Below the pieces are notes generated by a model. The model was not told where the DNA came from. It worked only from the letters and a program-made list of their open reading frames with translations, and did not search any database. This document shows positions 640-27,669 of a stretch of 32,473 nucleotides of DNA, piece by piece (the stretch's first letter is position 1; each line of letters begins with the position of its first letter). Position numbers and translations under genes: made by a program. Source of the DNA: a virus (Duplodnaviria; Heunggongvirae; Uroviricota; Caudoviricetes); the IMG/VR virus record IMGVR_UViG_3300045988_153444; one strand, written 5' to 3'.

Positions 640-939
640 ATGCCTTCGACAAGCACCAAAAAAGAAATGGCGGTTAGTGATGTGCTTTACGCGCTTTCGA
701 CTATATGTGACGGAGCAATGATGAGGATGAAAGTCCTCCATGAAGCATACGGAAAAAGTCACGATGAGGCAGCTAAAGAGTGCCTGAATGAGATTGTGGA
801 CTTCATTGATAGCCATCGTTCAGTTATATCGCGTCAACCGACAGCGTCGTCCATCACGATTAGCGCACCGGTTATCAATATATCAGTAACTGCGGCATGT
901 AAATCAGCAGCGGAAGATGATCGTGCTTATGCCGAGTGA
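640..939 (+). CDS. Hypothetical protein (99 aa)
   Basis: ORF with AGGAG 8 nt upstream of ATG 640; no recognisable motif. Confidence 0.45.
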   Translation: MPSTSTKKEMAVSDVLYALSTICDGAMMRMKVLHEAYGKSHDEAAKECLNEIVDFIDSHRSVISRQPTASSITISAPVINISVTAACKSAAEDDRAYAE

Positions 940-1129
940 TTTGTTCTGGTTTCCGCTTCCAATAAGAGATTTGTTGGTATTTCTAGCTGGCGCTTACGTC
1001 TGGAGAAAAGCGAAAGACACCTCGTTATCTTTGAGGTTTGTCTTAGCTATATCGGTAGGAACCGCGCTGGGGACGGCGTATCTCTTGACATTACTGGAGA
1101 TATTCATTGAAGAATGGATAGTTTCATGA
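917..1129 (+). CDS. Hypothetical small hydrophobic (membrane?) protein, 70 aa
   Basis: ORF overlapping the previous gene by 23 nt; hydrophobic stretches (LLVFLAGAYVW, VLAISVGTALGTAYLLTLL). Confidence 0.35.
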   Translation: MIVLMPSDLFWFPLPIRDLLVFLAGAYVWRKAKDTSLSLRFVLAISVGTALGTAYLLTLLEIFIEEWIVS

Positions 1130-1278
1130 ATGGTGTTGGCATTTTTCTGATGGTTGTGGCCGTGTGTTTTTGTATCTCGCTGGTGGTTATCGCTGGTGTC
1201 CTGTGGCGCATCTTAGTGGCGCAGAGGGCTTTTCGGCTTAAGCGGGAGCAAATGCGCCTTGATTTATATCGAAAGTAA
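1126..1278 (+). CDS. Small membrane protein candidate, 50 aa (not in the supplied ORF track)
   Basis: Hand translation: MNGVGIFLMVVAVCFCISLVVIAGVLWRILVAQRAFRLKREQMRLDLYRK. One predicted transmembrane segment plus a basic C-terminus; ATG overlaps the stop of the preceding ORF; followed by a terminator. Confidence 0.4.
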   Translation: MNGVGIFLMVVAVCFCISLVVIAGVLWRILVAQRAFRLKREQMRLDLYRK

Positions 1279-1285
1279 CTCTTAC

Positions 1286-1315
1286 AGCCTCGCGGTGTCG
1301 CGGGGCTTTTTATTT
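1286..1315 (+). terminator. Rho-independent terminator candidate
   Basis: Hairpin agcctcgcgg-tgt-cgcggggct followed by ttttatttt. Confidence 0.55.
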
Positions 1316-1327
1316 TCAGGTGATGTT

Positions 1328-1738
1328 ATGGAAAAGAAAGAAGATAAACCGATTGCCATTGGTGCAGAGTCTGTTCCGTTTAAGTTTGAATTATCCCAAC
1401 TGGTAACAATGCGTATCAGTGAAGAGTGGGGAGAAGTTCAAGCCCGTGCTCAGTATGCAAATGGCGAAAACCAGTATCTGATTCACTATCAGGCGGCTGA
1501 TGGCCGTGCTACCACAGAGTGGTTCGGTGAGTCGATGCTGATTGCGATGGAGGATAAACGTCATCCTGGCTGCCCTGTTTTTGCCTGTATTGATTTGCCA
1601 GAAGGCGCGGTACTTGAAGACGACAAAGAAGAATGGTCGCCTGATGGCGAACTTGTCATTACCGGAATCGTGGATGGTAAGCCGGAATATTCCCGTATTG
1701 AGGTAAATAACGGCCACATCTGTTTGATCCCTGCGTAA
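1328..1738 (+). CDS. Hypothetical acidic protein (136 aa from ATG 1328; ORF track extends to 1259)
   Basis: AGGTGA 7 nt upstream of ATG 1328; no family recognised. Confidence 0.55.
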   Translation: MEKKEDKPIAIGAESVPFKFELSQLVTMRISEEWGEVQARAQYANGENQYLIHYQAADGRATTEWFGESMLIAMEDKRHPGCPVFACIDLPEGAVLEDDKEEWSPDGELVITGIVDGKPEYSRIEVNNGHICLIPA

Positions 1739-1972
1739 CGCATTACAGCAGCTCTTGTGCTAATCAGGGGCTGCGATAATGCGCAAACCAAAGCTGCCTC
1801 ATTAACTCCTGCTCGCTGTGGAGTTAATGCTGGTGGCTTTTTTATTACTGGAAGGTGGGCGACCGCCGTCAGTTGCGACCTGACGACAGTCATTCATACC
1901 CACAGGGTGCCGTGGATACAAACCGAGGCCCACTTGCTTGCACAAGCGAGGGGATTTTAGCGGATAAACGGC

Positions 1973-2596
1973 ATGACAAAACATCTTAATGTGGTTTCTT
2001 TACCACTTTCTGTGTTGATTGGTTATGAAAAGAACGCTCGCACACACTCCGTGGAGCAGGTAGATCAGATTGTTGCCAGCATACAGGAGTACGGATGGAC
2101 TAATCCGATCCTGATAGACGAGAACAACGTTGTAATTGCTGGTCATGGTCGAATTGCTGCGGCCACTCAGTTGGGGATGGATGATGTTCCCTGCATTGTT
2201 CTGGCTGGGCTAACGGAGAATCAGAAGAAGGCATATCGTCTGGCCGACAACCGTATTCCGCTGAATGCTGGTTGGGATGAAGAGTTGTTAAGCGCGGAGC
2301 TTGCAGATCTTGCGGCCGATGATTTTGCTCTGGACTCAATTGGTTTTACTCAGCGCGAACTGGATAACTTATTGAGTGCGGCGGTCTACGATGACACAGA
2401 GGGTATGGATATCCCATTTGAGAAGGATGAGGCCAAATCAGGCGTAAAAGTTCAGTACCTGTCATTTGGAGGTCATAAAATCCCGGCAACGGATGAGGAA
2501 GCGGATCGTTTTGACTGCGCGGTGTCTCGTTATGTTGATGATAATGGCAGCTATATCGGATTTGTATCCGCATTGCTGGCTGGGGAGGTGTGCTGA
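1973..2596 (+). CDS. ParB-like nuclease (ParB N-terminal) domain protein
   Basis: ParB/Srx-type N-terminal pattern (…NPILIDENNVVIAGHGRIAAATQLGMDDVPCIVL…KKAYRLADN…). Paralog of the 5262-5852 product. Confidence 0.8.
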   Translation: MTKHLNVVSLPLSVLIGYEKNARTHSVEQVDQIVASIQEYGWTNPILIDENNVVIAGHGRIAAATQLGMDDVPCIVLAGLTENQKKAYRLADNRIPLNAGWDEELLSAELADLAADDFALDSIGFTQRELDNLLSAAVYDDTEGMDIPFEKDEAKSGVKVQYLSFGGHKIPATDEEADRFDCAVSRYVDDNGSYIGFVSALLAGEVC

Positions 2597-3969
2597 TGCT
2601 TCACCTGAATTACGACATAACGCACCTACGCGGCGCGGAATATAACCCGCGTTTTATCGGTGAGGATGATCTTGCGAGGCTGGCGGAAAGCGTCAGGGAG
2701 CTGGGGCTTGTGAAGCCATTGATAGTGCGCGGCGATTTGCTGGTGGCGGGACACCAAAGGACGAAGGCGCTACGTAAGTTGGGAATAACGCGTGCTGCGG
2801 TGTATGTGTTGCCCTGTGAAACGACGGTATACGACGAAGTACGGTTTAACCAACTGCATAACGGAACGGATTTTGATAGCGGAGATGAGCGTTGCAGGGT
2901 GTCCGGTCTGGAAGATAAGCATGGTTTTGTTCAGGTATCGGCAAGCCAGATCTCAGGCAATATGCGCGCGAAAATGGCATATGTTCGAAAGAACATAGCG
3001 GAACTGGTTATCAAGTATGGTCCGTGGGGTGGTTGTGTTGCTACTCAGTCTGGTGAGGTTATTCACTGTGCTCAGTATGCATTAGCAGCGAAAATGACGC
3101 GCACACCGCTAACGGTGTTTGTGATCCCTGATGTTGAGAAGGAAAAATACCAAAGTTATCTGAATAAAACTTATGGTGTATTTGAGTATTCTCATCTGGA
3201 GAAAACAACATACATCCAGACGTATGCGCAGCTTATGCGGTTGCGTAATGGTGGCAGCCTGAAATCAAACCTGTATGAGTCGTTGATCCTCCCGATCATT
3301 GCCAAGACGCCAAGAGGAATTGATTTTGGTTCGGGGCAGGGAGACTACGCGCGAATGCTCAGGGCAAAGGGATATAACCTGCATGATCTCGAGCTTTTCC
3401 GCCGTAAGGGCGCTGGAAACACTCTGGATAGGACCGCAACAAACCGGATGATTGATACGCTGGTGGACGACTTAAAAACGCGAGGGCGTTACGACTACGT
3501 GATTTGCGATAGCGTTTTGAACTCGGTCGATAGTGTCGAGGCTGAATGGTCTGTTCTGACGGTTCTGAAAGGCCTGTGTAAAGCTGGTGGGTCAATATTC
3601 TTTTCTGGTCGTAGCCGTGGAGAGCTGGAAACAGTCCTGAAGCAAACACAAGCGGCGAGTTCCAAAAGCCGGCTTTATTTTATTGATCATAACGGTTTTA
3701 CCGCGTTGTACCGGAAGGGGCACTGGTTTTACCAGAAGTTTCACTCTGATGATGAAGTGAAGCAGTTGTGTCGTGTACATGGTTTCAGGATTAAGCGGTC
3801 AATATTCAACTGTAAGAGCTGGTATTTGCACGTCATTAACGATGATTCCCTTAGTTGGGCGAGTCTGGAGAAAGCTGTTCGTTTTGAGTTTGAGTTGCCG
3901 TTGCCTGGTGGTTCAACAATCGGACGATCTGATGATGTGCTGGCGGCTTTCCGGCCGCTGATTAAGTAG
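2596..3969 (+). CDS. ParB-like N-terminal domain fused to a class I SAM-dependent methyltransferase fold
   Basis: N-terminus KPLIVRGDLLVAGHQRTKALRKLG (ParB-like). C-terminal half has motif I IDFGSGQGDY, an acidic post-I residue (HDLE), YDYVICDSVL and GGSIFFSG. No (D/N/S)PP(Y/F/W) amino-methyltransferase motif was found. ATG 2596 overlaps the upstream stop (TGATG) with GGGGAGG SD. Confidence 0.75.
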   Translation: MLHLNYDITHLRGAEYNPRFIGEDDLARLAESVRELGLVKPLIVRGDLLVAGHQRTKALRKLGITRAAVYVLPCETTVYDEVRFNQLHNGTDFDSGDERCRVSGLEDKHGFVQVSASQISGNMRAKMAYVRKNIAELVIKYGPWGGCVATQSGEVIHCAQYALAAKMTRTPLTVFVIPDVEKEKYQSYLNKTYGVFEYSHLEKTTYIQTYAQLMRLRNGGSLKSNLYESLILPIIAKTPRGIDFGSGQGDYARMLRAKGYNLHDLELFRRKGAGNTLDRTATNRMIDTLVDDLKTRGRYDYVICDSVLNSVDSVEAEWSVLTVLKGLCKAGGSIFFSGRSRGELETVLKQTQAASSKSRLYFIDHNGFTALYRKGHWFYQKFHSDDEVKQLCRVHGFRIKRSIFNCKSWYLHVINDDSLSWASLEKAVRFEFELPLPGGSTIGRSDDVLAAFRPLIK

Positions 3970-4889: not shown

Positions 4890-5260
4890 AAGTTAGGTTA
4901 AAAGTTGCGGTAAAAGAAATTTACTCATCTCATTGAAAAATATCGGGAAAACGTGATTTTTTCTGTATTTGTGCTGGTAAGAAGAAAGTGGAAAATTTTC
5001 TTTTAGATCATCAAGATACGCGCAGATCTTTAACCAATGTGATGTTGTTCTGATAAAAATCGTTATAAATCATGCAAATACATCCAATCTTTTAACCAAA
5101 ACACCATCGCAAGATCCTTTTTACTTATAAAAACTTAATAAAATCAGATAATTATGCTGGTTTGTGTGATTTTTTATGAGTAAAAAGATCGTCATTTTTC
5201 TCTTTTAGTATCAATAAGTTAAACAGTTTTCTTTAACCTGTTGTGTTATGGCGGTTAAAA
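4890..5260 (+). promoter_or_regulatory. AT-rich non-coding region upstream of the packaging operon; candidate late promoter and/or cos/pac region
   Basis: No convincing ORF. Four GATC sites counted by eye (5006, 5026, 5113, 5187). TCTTT(T)AACC motif three times (5027, 5089, 5230). Function is inferred. Confidence 0.3.
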
Positions 5261-5261
5261 A

Positions 5262-5852
5262 ATGGCTCTAAAAATCGAATATTTACCAGTCGGTAAGTTG
5301 CTCAGATATGCCAAAAATTCACGGACTCATTCAGATGAGCAAGTTGAACAGTTGGTGAACAGTATCCGTGAGTTCGGTTTCACTAATCCTGTGCTGATCG
5401 ATGAAAAGAATGAACTGATTGCGGGGCATGGGCGGCTTGCAGCAGCCGAAATTCTGGAAATGGATAAAGTTCCGGCGATTCGGTTGAGTAACCTTTCTGA
5501 AAAACAGAAGAAGGCTTACAGGATTGCAGATAACAAGCTGGCCTTAAATGCTGGCTGGGATATGCAGCTTCTGGCCGAAGAAGTCAAAGAGTTAATGGAT
5601 GATGATTTTGATATTGATCTGCTTGGGTTTAATGATGCAGAGCTTGACGAAATGTTAAGCGATGAACAGCCGCAGGAAGAAGACGATAATTCTTCCCCTG
5701 TTGTTCAAATTAAGTACCTGGCTATTGATAAAGAACGTATTCCCGCGACGGATATGGAAATTGCATTGTTGCTGGATGTTTATCGTCAGTACCACGACGC
5801 GCATGAAACGCATGAGGGATTTGTTCAGTATCTTGCTAATGGTTGCAAGTAA
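5262..5852 (+). CDS. ParB-like nuclease domain protein (paralog of 1973-2596)
   Basis: …NPVLIDEKNELIAGHGRLAAAEILEMDKVPAIRL…KKAYRIADN…; collinear similarity to the first ParB-like protein. Confidence 0.8.
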   Translation: MALKIEYLPVGKLLRYAKNSRTHSDEQVEQLVNSIREFGFTNPVLIDEKNELIAGHGRLAAAEILEMDKVPAIRLSNLSEKQKKAYRIADNKLALNAGWDMQLLAEEVKELMDDDFDIDLLGFNDAELDEMLSDEQPQEEDDNSSPVVQIKYLAIDKERIPATDMEIALLLDVYRQYHDAHETHEGFVQYLANGCK

Positions 5853-6403
5853 TGGCCATCGTCAGTAAGTCAGAGTTTGCCCGCCGGAAAGGTATTTCTC
5901 CGGCAATGGTTACGAAGCTCTGTCGTTCCGGTCGCATTCCAGTGCTGAAAAGCGGCAAGCTGGATTTTGATAAAGCCAGTGCGGCTTATGAAGCGAGCCG
6001 ACAGGTTGGTCGTGAGGTATCTGCTGAAAATGGAAAAAGAGGGCATGGGATATCTTCGGAACAACCAGAGTTACCCGCTGATGATGCCGGATTAGCTGGT
6101 GGTACTTCCGGTGTTGCGGTGCAATTCAACAAGGCTAAGACCGCAGAAAAAATTTATCAGGCAAAGCTGAAACGCCTTGAATTTGAAGAAAAGGAAGGCT
6201 CTCTCATCGCTAAAGATGCGGTCAGGGATGATGCATTTCTGGCAGCTAATGAATTGCGTAGCCGCTTATTTAGTATTGCTCCAAGAGCAGCTCCCCGTTG
6301 TGAAGGCAAAACAGCCAGGGAGATCGAGCGCATTATTGAAGACGAGATTAATTTTGCGCTTCAGGCGCTCCAGGAATCCCGATTTATTAAGCAGGAAGAA
6401 TAA
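5852..6403 (+). CDS. Terminase small subunit (HTH-containing)
   Basis: Sits immediately upstream of the large terminase; N-terminal HTH-like segment (SKSEFARRKGISPAMVTKLCRSG). ATG 5852 overlaps the upstream stop (TAATG); ORF track extends to 5843. Confidence 0.65.
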   Translation: MAIVSKSEFARRKGISPAMVTKLCRSGRIPVLKSGKLDFDKASAAYEASRQVGREVSAENGKRGHGISSEQPELPADDAGLAGGTSGVAVQFNKAKTAEKIYQAKLKRLEFEEKEGSLIAKDAVRDDAFLAANELRSRLFSIAPRAAPRCEGKTAREIERIIEDEINFALQALQESRFIKQEE

Positions 6404-6408
6404 ACCTC

Positions 6409-8265
6409 ATGGGCGAAACAGTATGGAGCACCGCTTTTTTCCGTGCGCTTCGCCCTAAATCACGGCTAACTGTTTCCGAATGGGCTGATAAGTATCGTCA
6501 TGTAGCGCCGGGAACGTCTCCAGAGCCAGGGCCGTGGCGTACAAGCCGAGTGCCATATTTGCGTGAACCAATGGATGTTATTGGTGACGCTGATACAGAA
6601 ACAGTAGTGATGCAATGTAGCTCGCAAATTGGTAAATCCGAATTACAGCTAAATGTTATGGGTTACTTTGCAGATCAGGAGCCATCTCCTCAGTTGATGA
6701 TTTATCCAACGGTAGAGGCGGCTGAGGCTTTTTCAAAAGAGCGTATTGATCCGACGTTCAAATATTCCCCTGGTTTGAAACACAAGCTGCATGAAGGGAA
6801 AGAGGGGCGCGGTGCAGCCAAAAAGTCCAGCACGACTATACGTATGAAGCATTACGCTGGTGGATATATAGCACTTGTTGGTGCTAATTCCCCAGCAGGT
6901 CTTGCATCCAGGCCAATTCGAATACTGTTAGCTGATGAGATTGATCGTTACGGTGTGACGCAGGAGGGCGACCCACTAAAACTAGGTATTCAGCGTACTA
7001 CCAACTTTCATAATCGTAAGAAAGTTTTTGTTTCTACTCCTGTTTTGGAGGAAACAAGCAAAATCCACAAGTGGTTTAAGCTCTCCGATCAGCGTTACTA
7101 CCATGTTCCTTGCCCATGTTGTGGCACCATGCAGGTGATGAAATGGTCGCAAGTCAGATGGGATAAGAGCGATTCAGGTGAGGCGTTACCGGAAACGGCC
7201 AGATATGAGTGCTGTGAGTGCGGCGGGATTATGCGCGGATCTGGTAAACCAGACGTTGATTGGTTGGCGAAGGGGGTATGGATAGCTGAACATACTGGAG
7301 TTAAAGGTATTGTTGGTTTTCATATTAACAGTCTTTACTCCCCGTGGGTTGCATTGTCAGAGCTGGTTGAAGAATTTACGGAAGCAACCAGAAACCGCGA
7401 TAAAAATGGATTAATGGAGTTTATTAACCTTAAGCTGGGTGAGCCATGGAAAGAGGATGCTAAAGACGATATCGATCCTGAATACTTGTTGCAACGCAGA
7501 ATAAGGTTTGAAGAGTTTTTACCAGATGATGTTTTATTGTTAAGTGCTGGTGTTGACGTACAGGACACGTATTTAGTTTGTGAATTGGTCGGTTGGGGAA
7601 AAGGTAAGGAGTCATGGGGGATAGAATATAAAATATTCCCAGGTGATCCCGCACAAGATGTTGTCTGGAAACAACTTGATGAATACTTACTCCGTAGCTG
7701 GTCATTCCGTGACGGTCGAAAATTACAGATTTCTTCCGTTTGTATTGACTCTGGTGGGCATTTTACGACAGAGGTATATCGCTTTACTAAGCCGAGAGAA
7801 TCAAGGCGAATATACTCTATCAGGGGGCGTGGTGGGGTAGGTTTACCATTTATAGGAAAGCCAAGTAATAATAACCGTGTGGGTGCTATGTTGTTTAATT
7901 TGGGGGTTGATGATGGTAAAGGGACCATCATGGCAAGAATTAAACTACATGATCCTGGTCCTGGTTATATGCATTTCCCATTAGATTCTGACAGAGGATA
8001 TGATACCGAATACTTTAAAGGATTATTATCAGAGAAAAAAATATTTGAATATAAAAATGGGCAGACAAAAGAAAAGTGGGTGAAAGTCTACGAGCGTAAC
8101 GAGCCTCTTGATTGCCGTAACTATGCAACTGCCGCGATGGAAATTCTGAACCCTAATTTTAACTGGCTTGCCGAACAGGAAATGCGAGGTAATGTGTATG
8201 TGCAGAACTCGTCAGGTATACGTAGAAGACGCCGTAGAGTTATAAGTAAAGGCGTAACCATATAG
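6409..8265 (+). CDS. Terminase large subunit, lambda GpA family
   Basis: 618-aa protein, P-loop-like SSQIGKS, size and order (terS-terL-W-portal) typical of lambda-like packaging modules. Confidence 0.9.
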   Translation: MGETVWSTAFFRALRPKSRLTVSEWADKYRHVAPGTSPEPGPWRTSRVPYLREPMDVIGDADTETVVMQCSSQIGKSELQLNVMGYFADQEPSPQLMIYPTVEAAEAFSKERIDPTFKYSPGLKHKLHEGKEGRGAAKKSSTTIRMKHYAGGYIALVGANSPAGLASRPIRILLADEIDRYGVTQEGDPLKLGIQRTTNFHNRKKVFVSTPVLEETSKIHKWFKLSDQRYYHVPCPCCGTMQVMKWSQVRWDKSDSGEALPETARYECCECGGIMRGSGKPDVDWLAKGVWIAEHTGVKGIVGFHINSLYSPWVALSELVEEFTEATRNRDKNGLMEFINLKLGEPWKEDAKDDIDPEYLLQRRIRFEEFLPDDVLLLSAGVDVQDTYLVCELVGWGKGKESWGIEYKIFPGDPAQDVVWKQLDEYLLRSWSFRDGRKLQISSVCIDSGGHFTTEVYRFTKPRESRRIYSIRGRGGVGLPFIGKPSNNNRVGAMLFNLGVDDGKGTIMARIKLHDPGPGYMHFPLDSDRGYDTEYFKGLLSEKKIFEYKNGQTKEKWVKVYERNEPLDCRNYATAAMEILNPNFNWLAEQEMRGNVYVQNSSGIRRRRRRVISKGVTI

Positions 8266-8276
8266 AGGAAATATAA

Positions 8277-8516
8277 ATGAACAATGAAGCATTTTCTCTG
8301 ACTGAAGCCAGAGAGATGTTATCTGTCTGGCGGGAAGCATATCGCGCTATTGCTATTGGCGGTCAGTCATATAAATTTGGTACGCGGCAGTTAACTCGTG
8401 CGGATTTATCAGAAGTCAGAAAAGAGATGGATTACTGGCGTAATGAAGTAGAAAGATTATCAGCAGGTGTACGCCGAGGCCCACGAATTAAACGAGTGGT
8501 GATAAGAGATTTATGA
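8277..8516 (+). CDS. Head-tail joining protein (lambda gpW-like)
   Basis: 79-aa ORF between terL and portal with a good SD (GAGGAAAT). Confidence 0.7.
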   Translation: MNNEAFSLTEAREMLSVWREAYRAIAIGGQSYKFGTRQLTRADLSEVRKEMDYWRNEVERLSAGVRRGPRIKRVVIRDL

Positions 8517-10087
8517 ATATTCTTGATCGAGTTATTGCGCCGTTTTCACCTCAGAGGGCATTAAATCGAGCTTTGGCAAGAAAACGGTTAGAAGCACTTG
8601 AAGGTATTAATAACCTTGGATATTCACGTCATGGTGCAAGCACTCATAAAAAATCATTAAGGGGTTGGTTTAGTAAAGCTGGTTCTCCTGATGATGATAT
8701 TGTTAAAAATATAGATAAATTGCGTGAGCGTTCTCGTGATCTCTTCATGGGAAACCCGCTATCTGTTGGCGCAATAAAAACTATCAGGACAAACGTTGTT
8801 GGTTCCGGTTTAAAACTAAATGCGAACATTGATGCCGATTTCTTGGGGATGACGCAGGAAGAAGCGCGAGCATGGGAAAAGCATGTTGAGCGTGAGTTTA
8901 GATTATGGGCTGATTCTCCAAATTGTGATGCATCAAGAATGTGTACTTTTGGACAATTGCAATCATTGGTCCAAATATCTGCGTTAACATCTGGCGATAT
9001 ATTTGCTGCGCTACCAGTTATTAAGCGTAAGGGTGTTATATATGATTTGTGCGTCTATTTAATTGAAGGTGATCGTGTTTGCAATCCAGAGGATCGTTTT
9101 ATACCAAATCTTTACGGTGGCGTAGAGGTTGGTGAATTTAGCGAGCCTGTGGCGTACTGGGTTGCAAAACATCACCCAGCCGGGACTTCTGGTTTTGTAA
9201 CCCGCAAGTGGGAACGTATTCCCGCATATGGGAGTAAAACAGGAAGAAGAAATATTCTGCATGTCATGCAGGATTTTGAAAGGCCTGGGCAACGCCGTGG
9301 CGTTCCTGTCCTTGCTCCTGTAATTGAAGCATTGAAGCAGTTAGGACGATACACCGATGCTGAATTGGTTGCTGCGGTTGTGTCAGGGATGTTTACTGTC
9401 TTTATTAAAACAGACGCTCCTGATGGGCCAGTCGGTGAATCGGGTATCCCTCAGTACGAGCAGATCGATAACCATGATGATAACACCCAAGAAATGGGGA
9501 ATGGCTCCATAGTAAGTTTGGGTGAAGGTGAGTCGATAGATACAGCAAATCCCGGGCGACCAAATACGGCATTTGATGGTTTTGTTGTCGCCATATGCCG
9601 TCAAATTGGGGCTGCTTTAGAACTCCCTTACGAACTCTTGGTAAAGCATTTTACAGCAAGTTATAGCGCAAGCAGGGCCGCATTACTTGAAGCCTGGAAA
9701 ATGTTCCGTATGCGACGTGACTGGATGGTTCAGTCATTTTGCCAACCGATCTATGAGGAATGGTTGGCCGAAGCCGTTGCTAAAGGTCGTGTTATTGCCC
9801 CTGGTTTTTTTTATGGGCCTGAATATCGCGCTGCATGGAGTGGCGCTCAATGGTATGGCCCATCACAAGGCCAATTAGATCCCCTTAAAGAAGTCAAAGC
9901 TGCAAAACTGCGTGTTGAGGAAACATTCTCTACCCGTGAAAAAGAAGCGGCTGAAATGTCAGGTCTTAACTGGGAAGAAACCGCACAAATCTGTGGCAGA
10001 GAAGAGAATGCTCGCCGTGAGTTGGGGCTTATTACACCTCCTGTTTCTGAGGTAAATGAACAAAATATGGAGACTGATGATGCCTAA
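8513..10087 (+). CDS. Portal protein (lambda B-like family)
   Basis: 524 aa; N-terminal portal pattern (…YSRHGASTHKKSLRGWFSKAGSPDDDI…); start overlaps the W stop. Confidence 0.9.
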   Translation: MNILDRVIAPFSPQRALNRALARKRLEALEGINNLGYSRHGASTHKKSLRGWFSKAGSPDDDIVKNIDKLRERSRDLFMGNPLSVGAIKTIRTNVVGSGLKLNANIDADFLGMTQEEARAWEKHVEREFRLWADSPNCDASRMCTFGQLQSLVQISALTSGDIFAALPVIKRKGVIYDLCVYLIEGDRVCNPEDRFIPNLYGGVEVGEFSEPVAYWVAKHHPAGTSGFVTRKWERIPAYGSKTGRRNILHVMQDFERPGQRRGVPVLAPVIEALKQLGRYTDAELVAAVVSGMFTVFIKTDAPDGPVGESGIPQYEQIDNHDDNTQEMGNGSIVSLGEGESIDTANPGRPNTAFDGFVVAICRQIGAALELPYELLVKHFTASYSASRAALLEAWKMFRMRRDWMVQSFCQPIYEEWLAEAVAKGRVIAPGFFYGPEYRAAWSGAQWYGPSQGQLDPLKEVKAAKLRVEETFSTREKEAAEMSGLNWEETAQICGREENARRELGLITPPVSEVNEQNMETDDA

Positions 10088-23678: not shown

Positions 23679-26525
23679 GTGAGTAAATTATTATTTACGA
23701 TGACTGACGCCGGGCGTAAGGCGCTGGTTAATGCCAACAAGACTGGAACAAATAAAGTTGAGATCGTTTCTGTTGGTTTAGGTAGTAGATATTATGCCAC
23801 ATCAACCACACAAACAAAAATAACAGATGAAATAAAGCGACTTACCACAATAGGAGGCAAAGTCGTTTCTCCTGATACCATTCATGTAACTGCGAAGGAT
23901 GATAGTAAAGATGAGTATGTTGTCCATACAATAGGTTTGTATACAAATAAAGGAACATTGTTTGCTGTATACTCGCAAGAACAAGTAATAATAAATAAAG
24001 TATCTTCTACAATTGCTTTAATATCAAGTGATATAGCAATTAAAAATCTTGATACTAAAAACATTACATTTGGTGATGTTGAGTTTATTAACCCTCCCGC
24101 AACCGAAACTGTTGTTGGAGTAGCAAGATTTGCTAATGAACAAGAAATTGATGCAGGTACAGATGATTCCCTGGCTGTTTCAGCAAAGCGGCTTAAGCAA
24201 GCTATTGTAAAACATGAGCAATCACGTAATCATCCTGATGCAACTTTAACATCAAAAGGCATTGTTCAACTCAGTAATGCCACCAATAGCACGTCTGAAA
24301 AGCTCGCAGCGACGCCTAAGGCTGTTAAGGCTGCATATGACCTGGCTGACGGAAAATATACCGCCCAGAATGCCACCACGGCACAAAAAGGGATAGTTCA
24401 GCTCAGTAGTGCCACTAACAGTACGTCTGAAACGCAGGCGGCAACGCCAAAAGCGGTCAAGGCAGCAAATGACAACGCAAATTCACGTCTGGCGAAAAAT
24501 CAGAACGGTGCAGATATCCAGGATAAATCAGCTTTTCTGGACAATGTTGGCGTTACCAGCCTGACGTTTATGAAAAACAATGGCGAAATGCCGCTTGATG
24601 CTGATCTGAATACGTTTGGTCCTGTTAAGGCTTATTCAGGTATCTGGTCTAAAGCAACATCCACCAACGCAACACTGGAGAAAAATTTCCCGGAAGATAA
24701 TGCTGTCGGTGTGCTTGAGGTTTTTGCTGCCGGCAATTTTGCAGGTACGCAACGCTTTACCACGAGAGACGGCAATGTATACATGCGTAAACTCGCCAAT
24801 AAGTGGAATGGCACTGATGGTCCGTGGGGCGTATGGCGTCACACTCAATCTGCTACCCGCCCTTTGAGTACGACTATAGACCTGAATACGCTTGGAGCCG
24901 CCGAGCATCTTGGTTTATGGCGTAACAGTAGCTCAGCTATAGCTTCATATGAACGCAATTATCCAGAGGAAGGCGGCTTTGCTCAGGGGATGCTTGAGAT
25001 CCTCGAAGGCGGAAATTATGGAAGAACGCAACGTTATACCACTCGCCGTGGAAATATGTATGTCCGCTGTCTTGCGGCAAGCTGGGATGCATCAAATCCG
25101 CAGTGGGAACCGTGGTTAAGAGTCGGTCATCAGTCAGAGAGTCGTTATTACGAAGGTGATTTGAATGATGTAACCTCACCAGGTATTTACAGCGTTACAG
25201 GTAAAGCGACCAACGGTCCAGTACTGGACGGAAACGGCGTGACTGTACTCGGCATTCTGGAAGTGTTGAGGCGGTTTGATGGTGTTAATGTATGGCAGCG
25301 TTATACAACTGCCGGAACAGGTACAACCCTTAAAGGCCGCACCTTTGAGCGCGTCTTTACCGGCAGCTCATGGAGCGAATGGCGGGAAGTCTACACCTCG
25401 TATTCACTTCCCCTGAATCTGGGTATCGGCGGTGCTGTGGCAAAGCTCACCAGCCTGGACTGGCAGACCTACGATTTTGTGCCGGGCAGTCTGATAACCG
25501 TTCGGCTTGATAACATGACCAATATTCCCGACGGTATGGACTGGGGCGTCATTGATGGCAACCTGATAAACATCTCAGTCGGTCCGAGTGATGATTCTGG
25601 TTCGGGACGCTCAATGCATGTATGGCGCAGCACTGTAAGTAAAGCCAACTACCGCTTTTTTATGGTTCGCATTTCAGGAAATCCGGGAAGCCGCACGATC
25701 ACGACAAGACGTGTGCCAATTATCGACGAAGCTCAGACATGGATGGCGAAACAGACATTCAGCGGTGGTCTTTCAGGCGAACTATCCGGCAATGCTGCTA
25801 CAGCAACAAAGCTGAAAACGGCAAGGACAATTAACGGCGTAAAATTTGACGGCTCGGCAAATATTGAAGCGTTTCCGCCAGGTGTTCCGCTGCCGTGGCC
25901 ATCAGATACGCCACCTGCAGGTTATGCAATCATGCAGGGGCAGACGTTTGATAAGGCAGCATATCCGAAACTGGCTATTGCCTATCCTTCTGGTGTTATT
26001 CCAGATATGCGCGGCTGGACAATCAAGGGCAAACCCGCCAGTGGTCGGGCCGTATTGTCTCAGGAACAGGATGGCATTAAATCGCACACCCACAGTGCCA
26101 GCGCATCCAGTACGGATTTGGGTACGAAAACCACATCGTCGTTTGATTACGGTACTAAATCAACGAATAACACAGGTGCACATACCCACAATGTATCTGG
26201 TACTGCAAATAGTGCTGGCGCACATACTCATACCGTTCCATTAAGGAGACCAAACAGTGGCGGTATGAATTTCGACTGGCTGGATGGTTCATCAAGTGGC
26301 ACGGTGGTGGGGAATGGAACTGTGCCTTCTTCTGGCGCACATACCCACTCAGTATCAGGTACCGCTACAAGTGCTGGGGCACATGCACACACTGTTGGTA
26401 TTGGCGCTCATACGCACTCTGTTAAGATTGGTTCACATGGACACACCATCACCGTTAACGCTGCTGGTAACGCGGAAAACACCGTTAAAAACATCGCATT
26501 TAATTATATTGTGAGGCTTGCATAA
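23679..26525 (+). CDS. Tail fibre protein
   Basis: 948 aa; GTG start with AAGGA SD; repeated TNSTSE…[10 protein letters not shown] units; C-terminal His-rich GAHTH/GAHAH repeats typical of side-tail-fibre tips. Confidence 0.85.
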
Positions 26526-27142
26526 TGGCATTCAGAATGAGTGAACAATCACGTACCGTAAAAATTTATAACCTGCTGGCCGGAACTAATGAGTTTATTG
26601 GTGAAGGTGACGCATATATTCCATCTCATACAGGGCTGCCAGCTAATTCTACAGATATCGCCCCACCGGAAATTCCTGCTGGCTTTGTGGCAGTTTTTAA
26701 CAGTGAAAATGAATCGTGGAATATTGTTGAAGACCATCGTGGTAAAACGGTCTATGACGTGGCGTCGGGGGACGCATTGTTTATTTCTGAACTCGGACCG
26801 CTACCAGAGAATGTCACCTGGTTGTCGCCAGCAGGGGAGTATCAGAAGTGGGACGGCGTATCCTGGGTGAATGATGAGGAAGCAGAAAAACTGTTTCGGA
26901 TACGGGAAGCGGAAGAGAAAAAGGCAAGGTTGATCCAGGAAGCAACAGATAACATCGCAATTCTGCAGGATGCAGTTAATCTTGAAATAGCAACAAACGA
27001 GGAAAATTCACAACTGGATTCCTGGAGAAAATACAGAGTATTAGTGAGTAGAATTGACACCAGTACAGCTCCGGATATCGTATGGCCAGAGCTGATGAAT
27101 CAGGGTTATGTTCGGGAGGACGAGCAGATAACTTCAGACTGA
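26525..27142 (+). CDS. Tail fibre assembly protein (Tfa/chaperone)
   Basis: 205 aa immediately after the fibre gene; C-terminal …[23 protein letters not shown]… motif typical of Tfa proteins. Confidence 0.8.
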
Positions 27143-27669
27143 AATTTAGTGATGAATGTTGAATCATCAGGAATATCATGCAATACCAATGCATGAGCAC
27201 CTATTGTGACATTGTTTCCTATACGCACTTTGCCACCAAGAATGGTGGCATTACAACCAATGGTCACATTATGCCCTATAACAATATCCATATCATTAAA
27301 TTCCCCGCGAAGTCCAATAGTTACTCCGGGCTTAATTGAACAATTTTCACCGATTGTTACTTTGTGACCGATAACAACACTGTTGAGATAAGAAATATCA
27401 AAGCCTTTCCCTATATTTACAGTTAAAGGGACTGTTACATTATATTTATCAAGAATGAAACGTTCTATTTTTCCCGCAATCTTCCGACAGTATCCGCCTT
27501 TATCAAAAAGGTATTTGGCTATGCGCCACCAAAATAAATAACGAACCCTTCTATGTTTTATTGCGCGAACAATTGCCTTTCGCCAGGAGAAAGGACGCTC
27601 GCTACCGATTACTTCATAGTGAATACAGTCTTTAAGTTCATTAATATTCATATCTTTATTATTCAGCAT
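27106..27669 (-). CDS. Hexapeptide-repeat (left-handed beta-helix) acetyltransferase, WcaB/CysE-like
   Basis: Tandem hexapeptide repeats ([22 protein letters not shown]…[34 protein letters not shown]); convergent with and overlapping the tfa 3' end by 37 nt. Confidence 0.8.

What the first reader, a model, noticed from the sequence alone, without database searches (positions are those of the whole stretch)
27106..27669. Convergent hexapeptide acetyltransferase overlapping the 3' end of the tail-fibre assembly gene
Directly seen: a minus-strand WcaB/CysE-like left-handed beta-helix acetyltransferase overlaps tfa by 37 nt, between the tail module and the replicon. Established: phages often carry surface-polysaccharide modification genes near tail-fibre genes. 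Inference: a lysogenic-conversion or superinfection-exclusion gene acetylating a cell-surface sugar precursor; an antibiotic-type acetyltransferase is an alternative.
Basis: partly seen in the sequence, partly recalled or inferred. Interest (0 to 1): 0.45.

Follow-up and report, generated by a model that had tools for sequence, protein, structure and literature searches.

The report
Phage-borne acetyltransferase cargo gene beside tail-fibre chaperone
A real, well-conserved but uncharacterised acetyltransferase-like cargo gene sits tail-to-tail with the tail-fibre chaperone gene of an E. coli phage-plasmid; it is probably a surface-sugar modifier carried for the lysogen's benefit, it is not a true serine acetyltransferase, and it has an unusual tyrosine where relatives have their catalytic histidine.

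Summary
ORF 27106-27669 (-) encodes a 187-aa (probably 181-aa) hexapeptide-repeat protein whose 3' end overlaps tfa by 37 nt, between a P2-like tail module and an IncFII-like repA.

- **Family.** It is a short serine-acetyltransferase-like protein (WcaB/EpsC type). It scores below every curated cut-off and lacks the CysE N-domain and serine-binding residues. Tyr replaces the catalytic His. This Tyr subclade is under strong purifying selection (dN/dS about 0.07).
- **Relatives.** The next-nearest relatives outside Enterobacterales lie in polysaccharide gene clusters. Closer chromosomal relatives have mixed neighbours.
- **Position.** A convergent position just after tfa recurs in 12 of 66 family clusters. 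It is positional only: acetyltransferase and Tfa alleles do not co-vary.
- **Overlap.** It comes from a small indel that removed the tfa stop codon, so it is incidental.
- **Mobility.** The gene travels in a 3.2-kb cassette (fibre C-terminus, tfa, acetyltransferase, promoter). The cassette also occurs in P1-like plasmids and P2-like prophages. It occupies the slot where sibling plasmids carry an invertible fibre segment with an invertase.
- **Prevalence.** 184 of 5,426 complete E. coli genomes carry it.

Best reading (about 0.4): a lysogeny-expressed envelope-glycan acyltransferase. Substrate and phenotype are untested. Interest is moderate.

The parts
27106..27669 (-). Acetyltransferase-like ORF (187 aa from the first ATG; probable true start is Met7 at 27651, giving 181 aa). 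It has an N-terminal four-helix region followed by a left-handed beta-helix.
   Evidence: ORF. Pfam Hexapep E 1.1e-12. Best NCBIfam hits are EpsC, cysE and WcaB, all below cut-off. PHROG 2154 E 6.9e-79. Family profile against SAT structures gives E 1.4e-37. dN/dS 0.07-0.09. AF2 helices at residues 3-70, then beta-helix.
27388..27390 (-). TAT codon for Tyr94 (Tyr88 in 181-aa numbering), at the column of the catalytic His of serine acetyltransferases (E. coli CysE His158).
   Evidence: Alignments. At this column there are 131 His, 43 Tyr and 4 Phe among the 178 of 190 acetyltransferase-HMM hits that have a residue there; all 97 distinct non-Tyr family sequences have His. The codon was read. TAT and TAC are both used across the Tyr clade.
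27106..27142 (.). 37-nt overlap of the convergent 3' ends of tfa and the acetyltransferase gene. It is a derived feature caused by loss of the tfa stop codon.
   Evidence: L131 has an 11-nt spacer. L140 has an 11-nt spacer containing a bidirectional terminator hairpin.
26525..27142 (+). Tail-fibre assembly chaperone (Tfa, 205 aa). The Caudo_TAP domain ends at residue 189; the last 15 residues are a read-through extension.
   Evidence: Pfam Caudo_TAP E 1.1e-39. PHROG 105. Junction alignment.
23679..26525 (+). Tail fibre (948 aa). The N-terminal shaft belongs to the plasmid backbone. The C-terminal two thirds belong to the swapped cassette.
   Evidence: Pfam Phage_fiber_2 and Collar. Backbone homology to sibling L184 ends at 24346.
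24547..27739 (.). 3.2-kb mosaic host-range cassette: fibre C-terminal part, tfa, acetyltransferase gene and 70 nt of its upstream region. It is shared at 94% identity with P1-like phage-plasmids.
   Evidence: blastn of the window against L002 and L116.
27691..27719 (-). Promoter-like site (TAGAAA, 17-nt spacer, TACAAT) 22 nt upstream of the first ATG. It lies inside the shared cassette.
   Evidence: Consensus scan, 9 of 12 matches. Sequence. Prediction only.
27740..27922 (.). Non-coding filler between the cassette and the replicon backbone. Positions 27827-27922 match DNA annotated as 'phage tail protein' in other plasmids, so this is probably a remnant of an earlier occupant of the slot.
   Evidence: (hits H86-H90). 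Backbone homology resumes at 27923 (L183) or 27947 (L184).
28136..29113 (+). IncFII-family RepA replication initiator. This is context only: it marks the right border of the cargo slot.
   Evidence: Pfam IncFII_repA E 1.2e-43. NCBIfam RepA_IncFII_LM, 231 bits against a cut-off of 70.

Best explanation
The gene is an accessory ('moron') gene of a temperate phage-plasmid.

**What it encodes.** A soluble acyl-CoA-dependent left-handed-beta-helix acyltransferase, presumably trimeric. It belongs to the short serine-acetyltransferase-like branch that includes WcaB and EpsC-type polysaccharide O-acetyltransferases.

**How it most likely works (inferred).** It is transcribed from its own promoter, opposite to the late tail operon, and so can be expressed in the lysogen. 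It most likely acylates a sugar of an envelope glycan precursor at the cytoplasmic face. Candidates are an O-antigen, ECA or colanic-acid repeat unit, or the LPS core. This would change the cell surface (lysogenic conversion) and possibly phage adsorption.

**Where it sits (shown).** It occupies the cargo slot immediately 3' of tfa. It moves as part of a 3.2-kb cassette (fibre tip, tfa, acetyltransferase) between P2-like prophages, P1-like phage-plasmids and this 47-kb IncFII-RepA phage-plasmid. In this plasmid it takes the place that sibling plasmids give to an invertible alternative-fibre segment with its invertase.

**Shown versus inferred.**
- Shown: the gene is real and under selection; its fold family; it is not CysE; Tyr replaces the catalytic His and the pocket is remodelled; the recurrent position after tfa; the cassette mobility.
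- Inferred: expression in lysogeny; a sugar acceptor; any surface or exclusion phenotype.
For: - **Family.** Hexapep. Best NCBIfam hits are EpsC, cysE and WcaB. The family profile matches SAT residues 102-274 with E 1.4e-37.
- **Sugar acceptor.** The three outside relatives examined (P0037, P0028, P0025) all lie within glycosyltransferase, NeuB or flippase clusters. One sits next to an alpha-2,8-polysialyltransferase.
- **Moron hallmarks.** GC is 36-38% against 47-53% in the tail genes. The gene is in opposite orientation with a promoter-like site. Sibling plasmids show presence/absence polymorphism.
- **Function retained.** dN/dS is 0.07-0.09, and Tyr is kept while synonymous sites are saturated.
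- **Recurrent position.** 12 of 66 clusters at 90% identity have a convergent tfa within 100 nt. These are scattered over the family tree.
- **Prevalence.** 184 of 5,426 E. coli genomes carry it. Of 40 rows sampled across the ranking, 38 show a tail fibre assembly gene under the match. In P2-like prophages it lies between tfa (gene G) and the sheath/tube block.
- **Precedent.** Prophage acetyltransferases that modify O-antigen or capsule are documented (PMC7067206, PMC13228068, PMC13123978).
Against: - The general-base His of SAT-type enzymes is Tyr here. Neighbouring pocket residues are also changed: Gln108 to Pro, Asn/Thr95 to Gly, Asp130 to Thr. O-acetyl transfer by the standard mechanism is therefore not assured.
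- Closer Enterobacterales relatives are mostly stand-alone chromosomal genes with unrelated neighbours. Examples: next to MFS and HAD genes in Pluralibacter, directly after true cysE in Proteus, and three tandem paralogues in one genome. Only a few lie near sugar genes.
- Acetyltransferase and Tfa identities are uncorrelated (Spearman 0.04).
- The fibre tip and Tfa N-terminal half resemble lambda Stf/Tfa. From my recollection of the literature, lambda Stf targets the protein OmpC, which such an enzyme could not mask.
- The AF2 model was too poor for fold-level support.
- There are no experimental data. One paper explicitly calls the gene's role unknown (PMC9603915).
Confidence: 0.4

Rival explanations
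1. The gene is generic hotspot cargo with an intracellular role, for example anti-phage defence or counter-defence. The protein would acylate a protein, nucleotide or metabolite rather than a surface glycan. Its position after tfa would reflect only a permissive insertion slot, the P2 Z/fun-type hotspot.
For: - In P2-like prophages it sits in the slot between G (tfa) and the sheath/tube operon. A preprint describes this slot as a mixed-purpose hotspot carrying receptor-binding-protein swaps and defence-like cargo (10.1101/2024.10.15.618418).
- Acetyltransferase and Tfa alleles re-assort freely.
- The active site is remodelled.
Against: - No PADLOC model matches.
- It is a single small gene with no partner.
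- To my knowledge no left-handed-beta-helix acetyltransferase is an established defence effector.
- The outside relatives examined are polysaccharide enzymes.
Confidence: 0.2
2. The protein is a small-molecule acetyltransferase in the manner of Maa/LacA (or Vat/CatB) that detoxifies a sugar, sugar analogue or antibiotic in the lysogen.
For: - The 51%-identical Pluralibacter homologue lies upstream of, and on the same strand as, an MFS transporter and a HAD sugar-phosphatase-like gene.
- Several chromosomal homologues neighbour transporters.
- There are weak NCBIfam and PDB hits to Maa, LacA, Vat and CatB.
Against: - Scores for Maa, LacA, Vat and CatB are far below cut-off: 22-33 bits against 300-475.
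- SAT-like and WcaB-like models score much higher.
- Nothing explains the recurrent link to tail-fibre genes.
- The catalytic His that these enzymes also use is missing.
Confidence: 0.12
3. The protein is a non-catalytic or mechanistically altered left-handed-beta-helix protein. With Tyr replacing the base, it may bind rather than acylate its ligand, or it may N-acylate an amino sugar, which needs no general base.
For: - His to Tyr plus co-ordinated pocket changes are conserved across a clade whose members are 53-100% identical to the window protein and whose synonymous sites are saturated.
Against: - Most of the beta-helix framework, with its Gly and Ile/Val repeat positions, is conserved with the His clade.
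- There is no direct evidence for loss of activity.
Confidence: 0.18
4. The protein is a genuine serine O-acetyltransferase, as RefSeq annotates it, and boosts cysteine synthesis during infection.
For: - The best solved-structure hits are CysE enzymes.
- PGAP names it 'serine acetyltransferase'.
- In Proteus a homologue lies directly after cysE.
Against: - TIGR01172 scores 71.5 against a cut-off of 210.65, and PRK11132 scores 44.7 against 397.
- There is no SATase_N domain.
- CysE Asp143, Asp157, His158, Arg192 and His193 align with Thr, Ser, Tyr, Met and Asp.
- The C-terminus ends in ...SSSRT, not the CysK-binding Ile.
Confidence: 0.03

Closest known systems
WcaB (colanic-acid acetyltransferase) and EpsC-type short serine-acetyltransferase-like polysaccharide O-acetyltransferases
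   Same: - Size is about 160-190 aa.
- The architecture is a few N-terminal helices followed by a left-handed beta-helix.
- These are the best NCBIfam models.
- The outside relatives examined sit in polysaccharide clusters.
   Different: - Scores are 60-81 bits against cut-offs of 150-196.
- The gene is not in a polysaccharide locus.
- The His conserved in WcaB (His74) is Tyr here.
CysE serine O-acetyltransferase
   Same: - Homologous over SAT residues about 102-274.
- Same beta-helix and the last helices of the alpha-domain.
   Different: - It lacks the first 100 or so residues (SATase_N).
- It lacks the Asp-His catalytic dyad, the serine-binding Asp157, Arg192 and His193, and the CysK-binding tail.
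NeuO, the K1 polysialic-acid O-acetyltransferase of prophage CUS-3 (recalled from the literature; PDB 3jqy)
   Same: It is a phage-borne left-handed-beta-helix acetyltransferase encoded next to the receptor-binding tail gene and used for lysogenic conversion of a surface glycan. This is the closest functional analogy.
   Different: - There is no 5' heptanucleotide tandem repeat for phase variation.
Oac/GtrC-type prophage O-antigen acetyltransferases (Sf6, BTP1)
   Same: They are prophage cargo genes expressed in lysogeny that acetylate O-antigen and block superinfection (PMC7067206, PMC3851460). This is the proposed biological role.
   Different: Those are integral-membrane acyltransferase-3 enzymes acting outside the cytoplasm. 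This protein is a soluble beta-helix protein with no membrane segments.
Cargo of the P2 Z/fun hotspot downstream of tail-fibre genes H and G
   Same: - Same genomic slot in P2-like prophages.
- Low GC, opposite strand, variable occupancy (for the hotspot description).
   Different: Z/fun itself is unrelated in sequence and excludes T5 (recalled). No exclusion phenotype is known for this gene.
Invertible host-range segments of Mu (G segment with gin) and P1 (C segment with cin)
   Same: They occupy the same place. Sibling plasmid L183 carries tfa followed by an inverted tfa', an inverted fibre' and an invertase in this slot. In P1-like plasmids the cassette replaces U and part of S (PMC9603915).
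   Different: The window has no second fibre or chaperone set, no invertase and no flanking inverted crossover repeats. Host range is fixed, and an acetyltransferase gene sits there instead.

Membership tests
Hexapeptide-repeat / left-handed beta-helix acyltransferase superfamily | Tandem hexapeptide repeats matching Pfam PF00132 above the gathering score | tested here: met
   47.5 bits against a cut-off of 27, E 1.1e-12.
Hexapeptide-repeat / left-handed beta-helix acyltransferase superfamily | Left-handed beta-helix fold in three dimensions | tested here: inconclusive
   [not shown]
Serine O-acetyltransferase CysE (TIGR01172 / PRK11132) | Score at or above the curated equivalog cut-off | tested here: not met
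   71.5 against 210.65, and 44.7 against 397.
Serine O-acetyltransferase CysE (TIGR01172 / PRK11132) | N-terminal SATase_N helical domain | tested here: not met
   No PF06426 hit. The family profile aligns only to SAT residues about 102-274.
Serine O-acetyltransferase CysE (TIGR01172 / PRK11132) | Catalytic Asp143-His158 dyad and serine-binding Asp157, Arg192 and His193 (E. coli numbering; residue roles recalled from the structural literature) | tested here: not met
   The aligned residues are Thr79, Tyr94, Ser93, Met127 and Asp128.
WcaB colanic-acid acetyltransferase (TIGR04016 / PRK10191) | Score at or above the equivalog cut-off | tested here: not met
   60.1 against 194.65, and 62.4 against 196.
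WcaB colanic-acid acetyltransferase (TIGR04016 / PRK10191) | Location in the wca colanic-acid gene cluster | tested here: not met
   It lies between tfa and repA on a phage-plasmid.
EpsC-type EPS acetyltransferase (NF041874) | Score at or above the equivalog cut-off | tested here: not met
   81.2 against 150. It is the best-scoring model, matching residues 30-173.
Vat / CatB antibiotic acetyltransferases | Score at or above the NCBIfam cut-offs | tested here: not met
   22-27 bits against 300-475.
NeuO-type phase-variable phage capsule O-acetyltransferase | Specific sequence similarity to NeuO and a 5' heptanucleotide tandem repeat | tested here: not met
   3jqy is not among the phmmer hits or the 60 best profile hits shown. 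There are no tandem repeats in 26400-28300.
PHROG 2154 (phage protein family of unknown function) | Full-length profile match | tested here: met
   E 6.9e-79, residues 5-186 on profile positions 2-184 of 185.
Phage moron / lysogenic-conversion gene | Foreign base composition, own promoter, dispensability (presence/absence among sibling elements) | tested here: met
   GC is 36-38% against about 50%. There is a promoter-like site (prediction only). Siblings L183 and L184 lack the gene.
Phage moron / lysogenic-conversion gene | Expression in the lysogen and a host phenotype | not testable with these tools
   This needs RNA-seq of lysogens and glycan chemistry or adsorption assays.
Known anti-phage defence systems (PADLOC-DB 2.0) | Match to any defence-protein model | tested here: not met
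   0 families at E <= 0.01.

The most novel reading that the evidence does not exclude
The Tyr-for-His subclade may be a neofunctionalised beta-helix protein. It could acylate by a base-independent mechanism, or bind without acylating, a glycan common to Enterobacterales such as the LPS core or enterobacterial common antigen. It would be carried beside Tfa-dependent fibre cassettes as a previously unrecognised, widely distributed superinfection-exclusion or surface-conversion determinant. On this reading, phages trade an invertible dual-host-range segment for a fixed fibre plus this modifier.
Probability: 0.12. Interest if true: 0.6.

Novelty: new member of a known kind. Interest (0 to 1): 0.36.

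Why it matters
The gene is common: about 3.4% of complete E. coli genomes carry it, on chromosomal prophages and on two kinds of phage-plasmid. It is routinely mis-annotated as serine acetyltransferase, and one paper notes it as unexplained.

If it does modify a surface glycan, it would affect serotype, phage susceptibility and phage-therapy host-range prediction in clinical E. coli. It would also be a second, unrelated example of a beta-helix conversion enzyme riding with a receptor-binding module, after NeuO.

The conserved His-to-Tyr change gives enzymologists a clean question about mechanism.

The three-state slot (invertible fibre segment, acetyltransferase, or nothing) is a neat natural experiment on how temperate elements use the locus after tfa.

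Tried and rejected
- **Defence route.** PADLOC gave no hit. The P2/P4 hotspot paper does not mention such a gene.
- **Receptor-matching idea.** I tested whether acetyltransferase alleles co-vary with adjacent Tfa alleles. They do not (Spearman 0.04). Clear discordant pairs exist: L149 and L039 share 96% acetyltransferase identity but have different Tfa, and L140 and L039 share 84% Tfa identity but only 49% acetyltransferase identity. I dropped 'allele-matched masking' in favour of a positional slot.
- **Overlap as a regulatory device.** Rejected. It arises from a 2-nt indel at the tfa stop and is absent from related alleles.
- **NeuO-like phase variation.** There are no tandem repeats.
- **Invertible-segment remnant.** No flanking inverted repeats of crossover type were found.
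- **Rfam.** Nothing reaches the gathering threshold in the window.
- **True CysE and antibiotic acetyltransferase.** Both rejected on curated cut-offs and active-site residues.
- **Neighbourhood of non-tfa family members.** Two bulk Pfam scans gave no consistent neighbour, so context does not settle the substrate.
Full report
**1. The observation**

One search lists an ORF at 27106..27669 on the minus strand (187 aa, ATG start). It also lists the plus-strand tail-fibre assembly gene at 26525..27142 (205 aa). Their 3' ends overlap by 37 nt. Upstream is a 948-aa tail fibre (23679..26525). Downstream is an IncFII-family RepA (28136..29113).

The ORF is not a chance reading frame:
- Pfam Hexapep gives E 1.1e-12.
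- PHROG 2154, a phage family of unknown function, matches end to end at E 6.9e-79.
- dN/dS is 0.07 against an allele whose protein is 92% identical (dS 0.67) and 0.09 against the P1-plasmid allele.

Homologues all begin at the position of Met7 (MxxxELKEC). Other RefSeq copies are annotated as 546 nt. The real start is therefore probably ATG 27651, giving 181 aa.

**2. The element**

The window is about 99.9% identical to roughly twenty 47-50-kb non-mobilizable E. coli plasmids and to the induced phage vB_EcoM-613R2. The annotated sibling pSCU-204-5 carries these features:
- sheath, tube, tape-measure, baseplate V/W/J/I, fibre and tfa genes, then this gene;
- then repA, a RelE/ParE toxin-antitoxin pair, ParA, and lysis genes.

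It is a phage-plasmid with a P2-like contractile tail and an IncFII-like replicon.

**3. What the protein is**

The best NCBIfam models all fall far below their curated cut-offs:

| Model | Score (bits) | Cut-off (bits) |
|---|---|---|
| EpsC | 81 | 150 |
| cysE | 71.5 | 210.65 |
| WcaB | 60-62 | about 195 |
| Vat/CatB models | 22-27 | 300-475 |

The best solved structures by sequence are serine acetyltransferases (SATs). A profile of 91 family members matches SAT residues about 102-274 at E 1.4e-37. The family thus corresponds to the C-terminal two thirds of a SAT: the last helices plus the beta-helix, without the SATase_N domain.

Alignment to E. coli CysE gives these correspondences (residue roles recalled from the CysE structural literature):

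| CysE residue | Window residue |
|---|---|
| Asp143 | Thr79 |
| Asp157 | Ser93 |
| His158 | Tyr94 |
| Arg192 | Met127 |
| His193 | Asp128 |

The same His-to-Tyr correspondence appears in the HMMER alignment to PDB 6wye. The RefSeq name 'serine acetyltransferase' is therefore not justified.

**4. The Tyr subclade**

I fetched 160 related loci and searched them with a family HMM.
- Of the 190 acetyltransferase-HMM hits, 178 have a residue at the catalytic column: 131 have His, 43 Tyr and 4 Phe. These hits include distant relatives and true CysE genes.
- Tyr occurs only in the window clade and in P0014.
- The metagenomic proteins P0007-P0010 and P0013 (53-75% identity) also carry Tyr.
- Both TAT and TAC codons occur, and synonymous sites between these members are saturated. 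Tyr is therefore an old, selected state rather than decay.

The Tyr clade also differs from 97 His-type sequences at neighbouring positions (181-aa numbering):
- Gln108 (90% conserved, also Gln in CysE) becomes Pro.
- Asn/Thr95 becomes Gly.
- Arg107 becomes Lys.
- Asp130 becomes Thr.

The acceptor pocket has been remodelled.

**5. Relatives and their contexts**

In the 5.8-billion-protein search there is a tight enterobacterial group (P0001-P0022, 41-100% identity). Scores then drop sharply to about 185-aa proteins; the named ones among the latter are from Flavobacterium.

The three outside relatives I looked up all sit inside polysaccharide clusters with glycosyltransferases, NeuB, CMP-sugar synthetase or a Wzx-type flippase. 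One is next to an alpha-2,8-polysialyltransferase.

Within Enterobacterales the picture is mixed:

| Relative | Context |
|---|---|
| P0020 | End of a P2-like prophage beside mntR |
| P0016 | Upstream of, and on the same strand as, an MFS transporter and a HAD phosphatase |
| P0015 | One of three tandem paralogues |
| P0009 | Beside a UDG-family gene |
| Homologue in several Proteus species | Immediately after true cysE |

Bulk Pfam scans of the neighbours of 51 further clusters found no dominant partner. A few had UDP-glucose dehydrogenase, GT2, GT17 or integrases. Many had transporters or unrelated genes.

**6. The link with tfa**

A jackhmmer profile started from the window Tfa finds a convergent tfa within 100 nt of the acetyltransferase gene's 3' end in 12 of 66 clusters at 90% identity. 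These include His-type members only 34-49% identical to the window protein. They are scattered across the neighbour-joining tree.

Among 5,426 complete E. coli genomes, 184 carry the window-type gene. There are 158 chromosomal and 59 plasmid places. In the 40 rows sampled across the ranking, the neighbour is annotated as a tail-fibre assembly protein in 38 and as a pyocin-knob domain (tail-fibre-type) protein in 2.

In P2-like prophages it lies between G (tfa) and the sheath/tube block. This is the Z/fun slot, described as a mixed hotspot for receptor-binding-protein swaps and cargo.

The association is positional, not allele-specific. Pairwise acetyltransferase identity and Tfa identity are uncorrelated (Spearman 0.04), with clear discordant pairs.

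**7. The overlap**

- In L131 (acetyltransferase protein 92% identical) tfa ends '...CTG TGA', 11 nt before the acetyltransferase stop.
- In L140 (acetyltransferase protein about 50% identical) the 11-nt spacer lies within a bidirectional terminator hairpin.
- The window and P1-plasmid alleles have a 2-nt indel that destroys the tfa stop. This adds 15 residues beyond the Caudo_TAP domain (which ends at residue 189 of 205) and creates the 37-nt overlap.

The overlap is an incidental derived state, although it is the majority allele in E. coli.

**8. Mosaic structure of the slot**

Window 24547-27739 covers the fibre C-terminal two thirds, tfa, the acetyltransferase gene and 70 nt upstream that include a promoter-like TAGAAA-17-TACAAT. 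This stretch is 94% identical to P1-like phage-plasmids. A published analysis of the P1-like plasmid JL22 notes that U and part of S were replaced by tfa and a 'serine acetyltransferase' whose presence is 'still unknown' (PMC9603915).

Homology to sibling plasmids of the same backbone ends at 24346 and resumes at 27923 or 27947. In the same slot:
- sibling L183 carries tfa, then an inverted tfa', an inverted fibre' and an invertase, which is a Mu/P1-type invertible host-range segment;
- sibling L184 has tfa directly before repA.

The window has no invertase, no second fibre set and no crossover-type inverted repeats. The acetyltransferase gene is markedly AT-rich: 36-38% GC against 47-53%.

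**9. Interpretation**

The best-supported reading, at about 0.4, is a lysogeny-expressed cargo gene. It would encode a soluble acyl-CoA-dependent beta-helix acyltransferase that modifies an envelope-glycan precursor.
- Function retained, fold family, non-CysE status, positional recurrence and mobility are shown.
- Expression in lysogeny, the acceptor and any exclusion phenotype are inferred.

The Tyr substitution, the mixed chromosomal contexts and the lack of allele matching keep four rivals alive:
- hotspot cargo with an intracellular or defence role (0.2);
- an altered-mechanism or non-catalytic beta-helix protein (0.18);
- a small-molecule acetyltransferase (0.12);
- a true SAT (0.03).

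**10. Comparison and novelty**

Prophage acetyltransferases that convert surface glycans are a known kind. Examples are Oac/GtrC membrane enzymes, NeuO of CUS-3, and the Acinetobacter and Klebsiella prophage acetyltransferases.

This gene is an uncharacterised member of that kind, from a different branch (short SAT-like, PHROG 2154), with an unusual active-site residue. It is already annotated in hundreds of genomes. I file it as a new member of a known kind, of moderate interest. The Tyr clade and the three-state slot are the points most worth an experiment.

Noticed in passing
window 28140-28250 (-), inside the 5' end of the annotated repA ORF: There are two strong hairpins: 28182-28197 with 28234-28249 (16 nt, perfect), and 28143-28158 with 28161-28176 followed by a T-run on the minus strand. 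They look like a roughly 110-nt countertranscript (CopA/RNAI-like) controlling repA. The RepA family models match only from residue 52 (Pfam) or 57 (NCBIfam), so the real RepA start may be Met44 (ATG at about 28265). No Rfam family reaches threshold.
   Followed up: partly
L183 (NZ_CP098182.1) 682-3065, compared with window 26525-27922: Sibling phage-plasmids with the same repA backbone carry a Mu/P1-like invertible host-range segment (tfa, then inverted tfa', inverted fibre' and a recombinase) in the slot where the window has the acetyltransferase gene. L184 has neither. In L183 a Tn5403-family transposon has also inserted beside the invertase.
   Followed up: partly
window 27827-27922: A 96-bp stretch between the acetyltransferase promoter region and the replicon matches DNA annotated as 'phage tail protein' in unrelated plasmids at 93-97%. 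It reads as the C-terminal end of a + strand ORF (...FTAGFWLGIIDWS*). It is probably a relic of an earlier tail-gene occupant of the slot.
   Followed up: partly
L002 (P1-like plasmid NZ_MH844525.1) 9822-10085 (-): [quoted passage not shown]
   Followed up: yes
L025-L028, L030, L035, L040, L041, L075 (Proteus spp.), about 5150-6545: In several Proteus species a His-type member of this family lies immediately downstream of, and abutting, a genuine 277-aa cysE. This operon-like pairing could hint at a metabolic rather than a surface role for chromosomal members.
   Followed up: no
L008 (Enterobacteriaceae bacterium BIT-l23) 7992-9697: Three tandem paralogues of the family (about 181-195 aa as called in the source annotation) lie in a row in a non-phage chromosomal context.
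   Followed up: no
L185 and L186 (E. coli P2-like prophages): The sheath, tube, E, T and U tail genes lie on the strand opposite to V-W-J-I-H-G, with the acetyltransferase gene at the junction. This suggests an inversion of the F operon relative to canonical P2 order (recalled). Some genomes carry 2-3 copies of the acetyltransferase gene, which could mediate such rearrangements.
   Followed up: no
window 29745-30331 and the region equivalent to L001 16912-17558: A RelE/ParE-family toxin with an HTH antitoxin, and further small HTH genes, follow repA. These are typical plasmid-maintenance cargo and were not examined.
   Followed up: no
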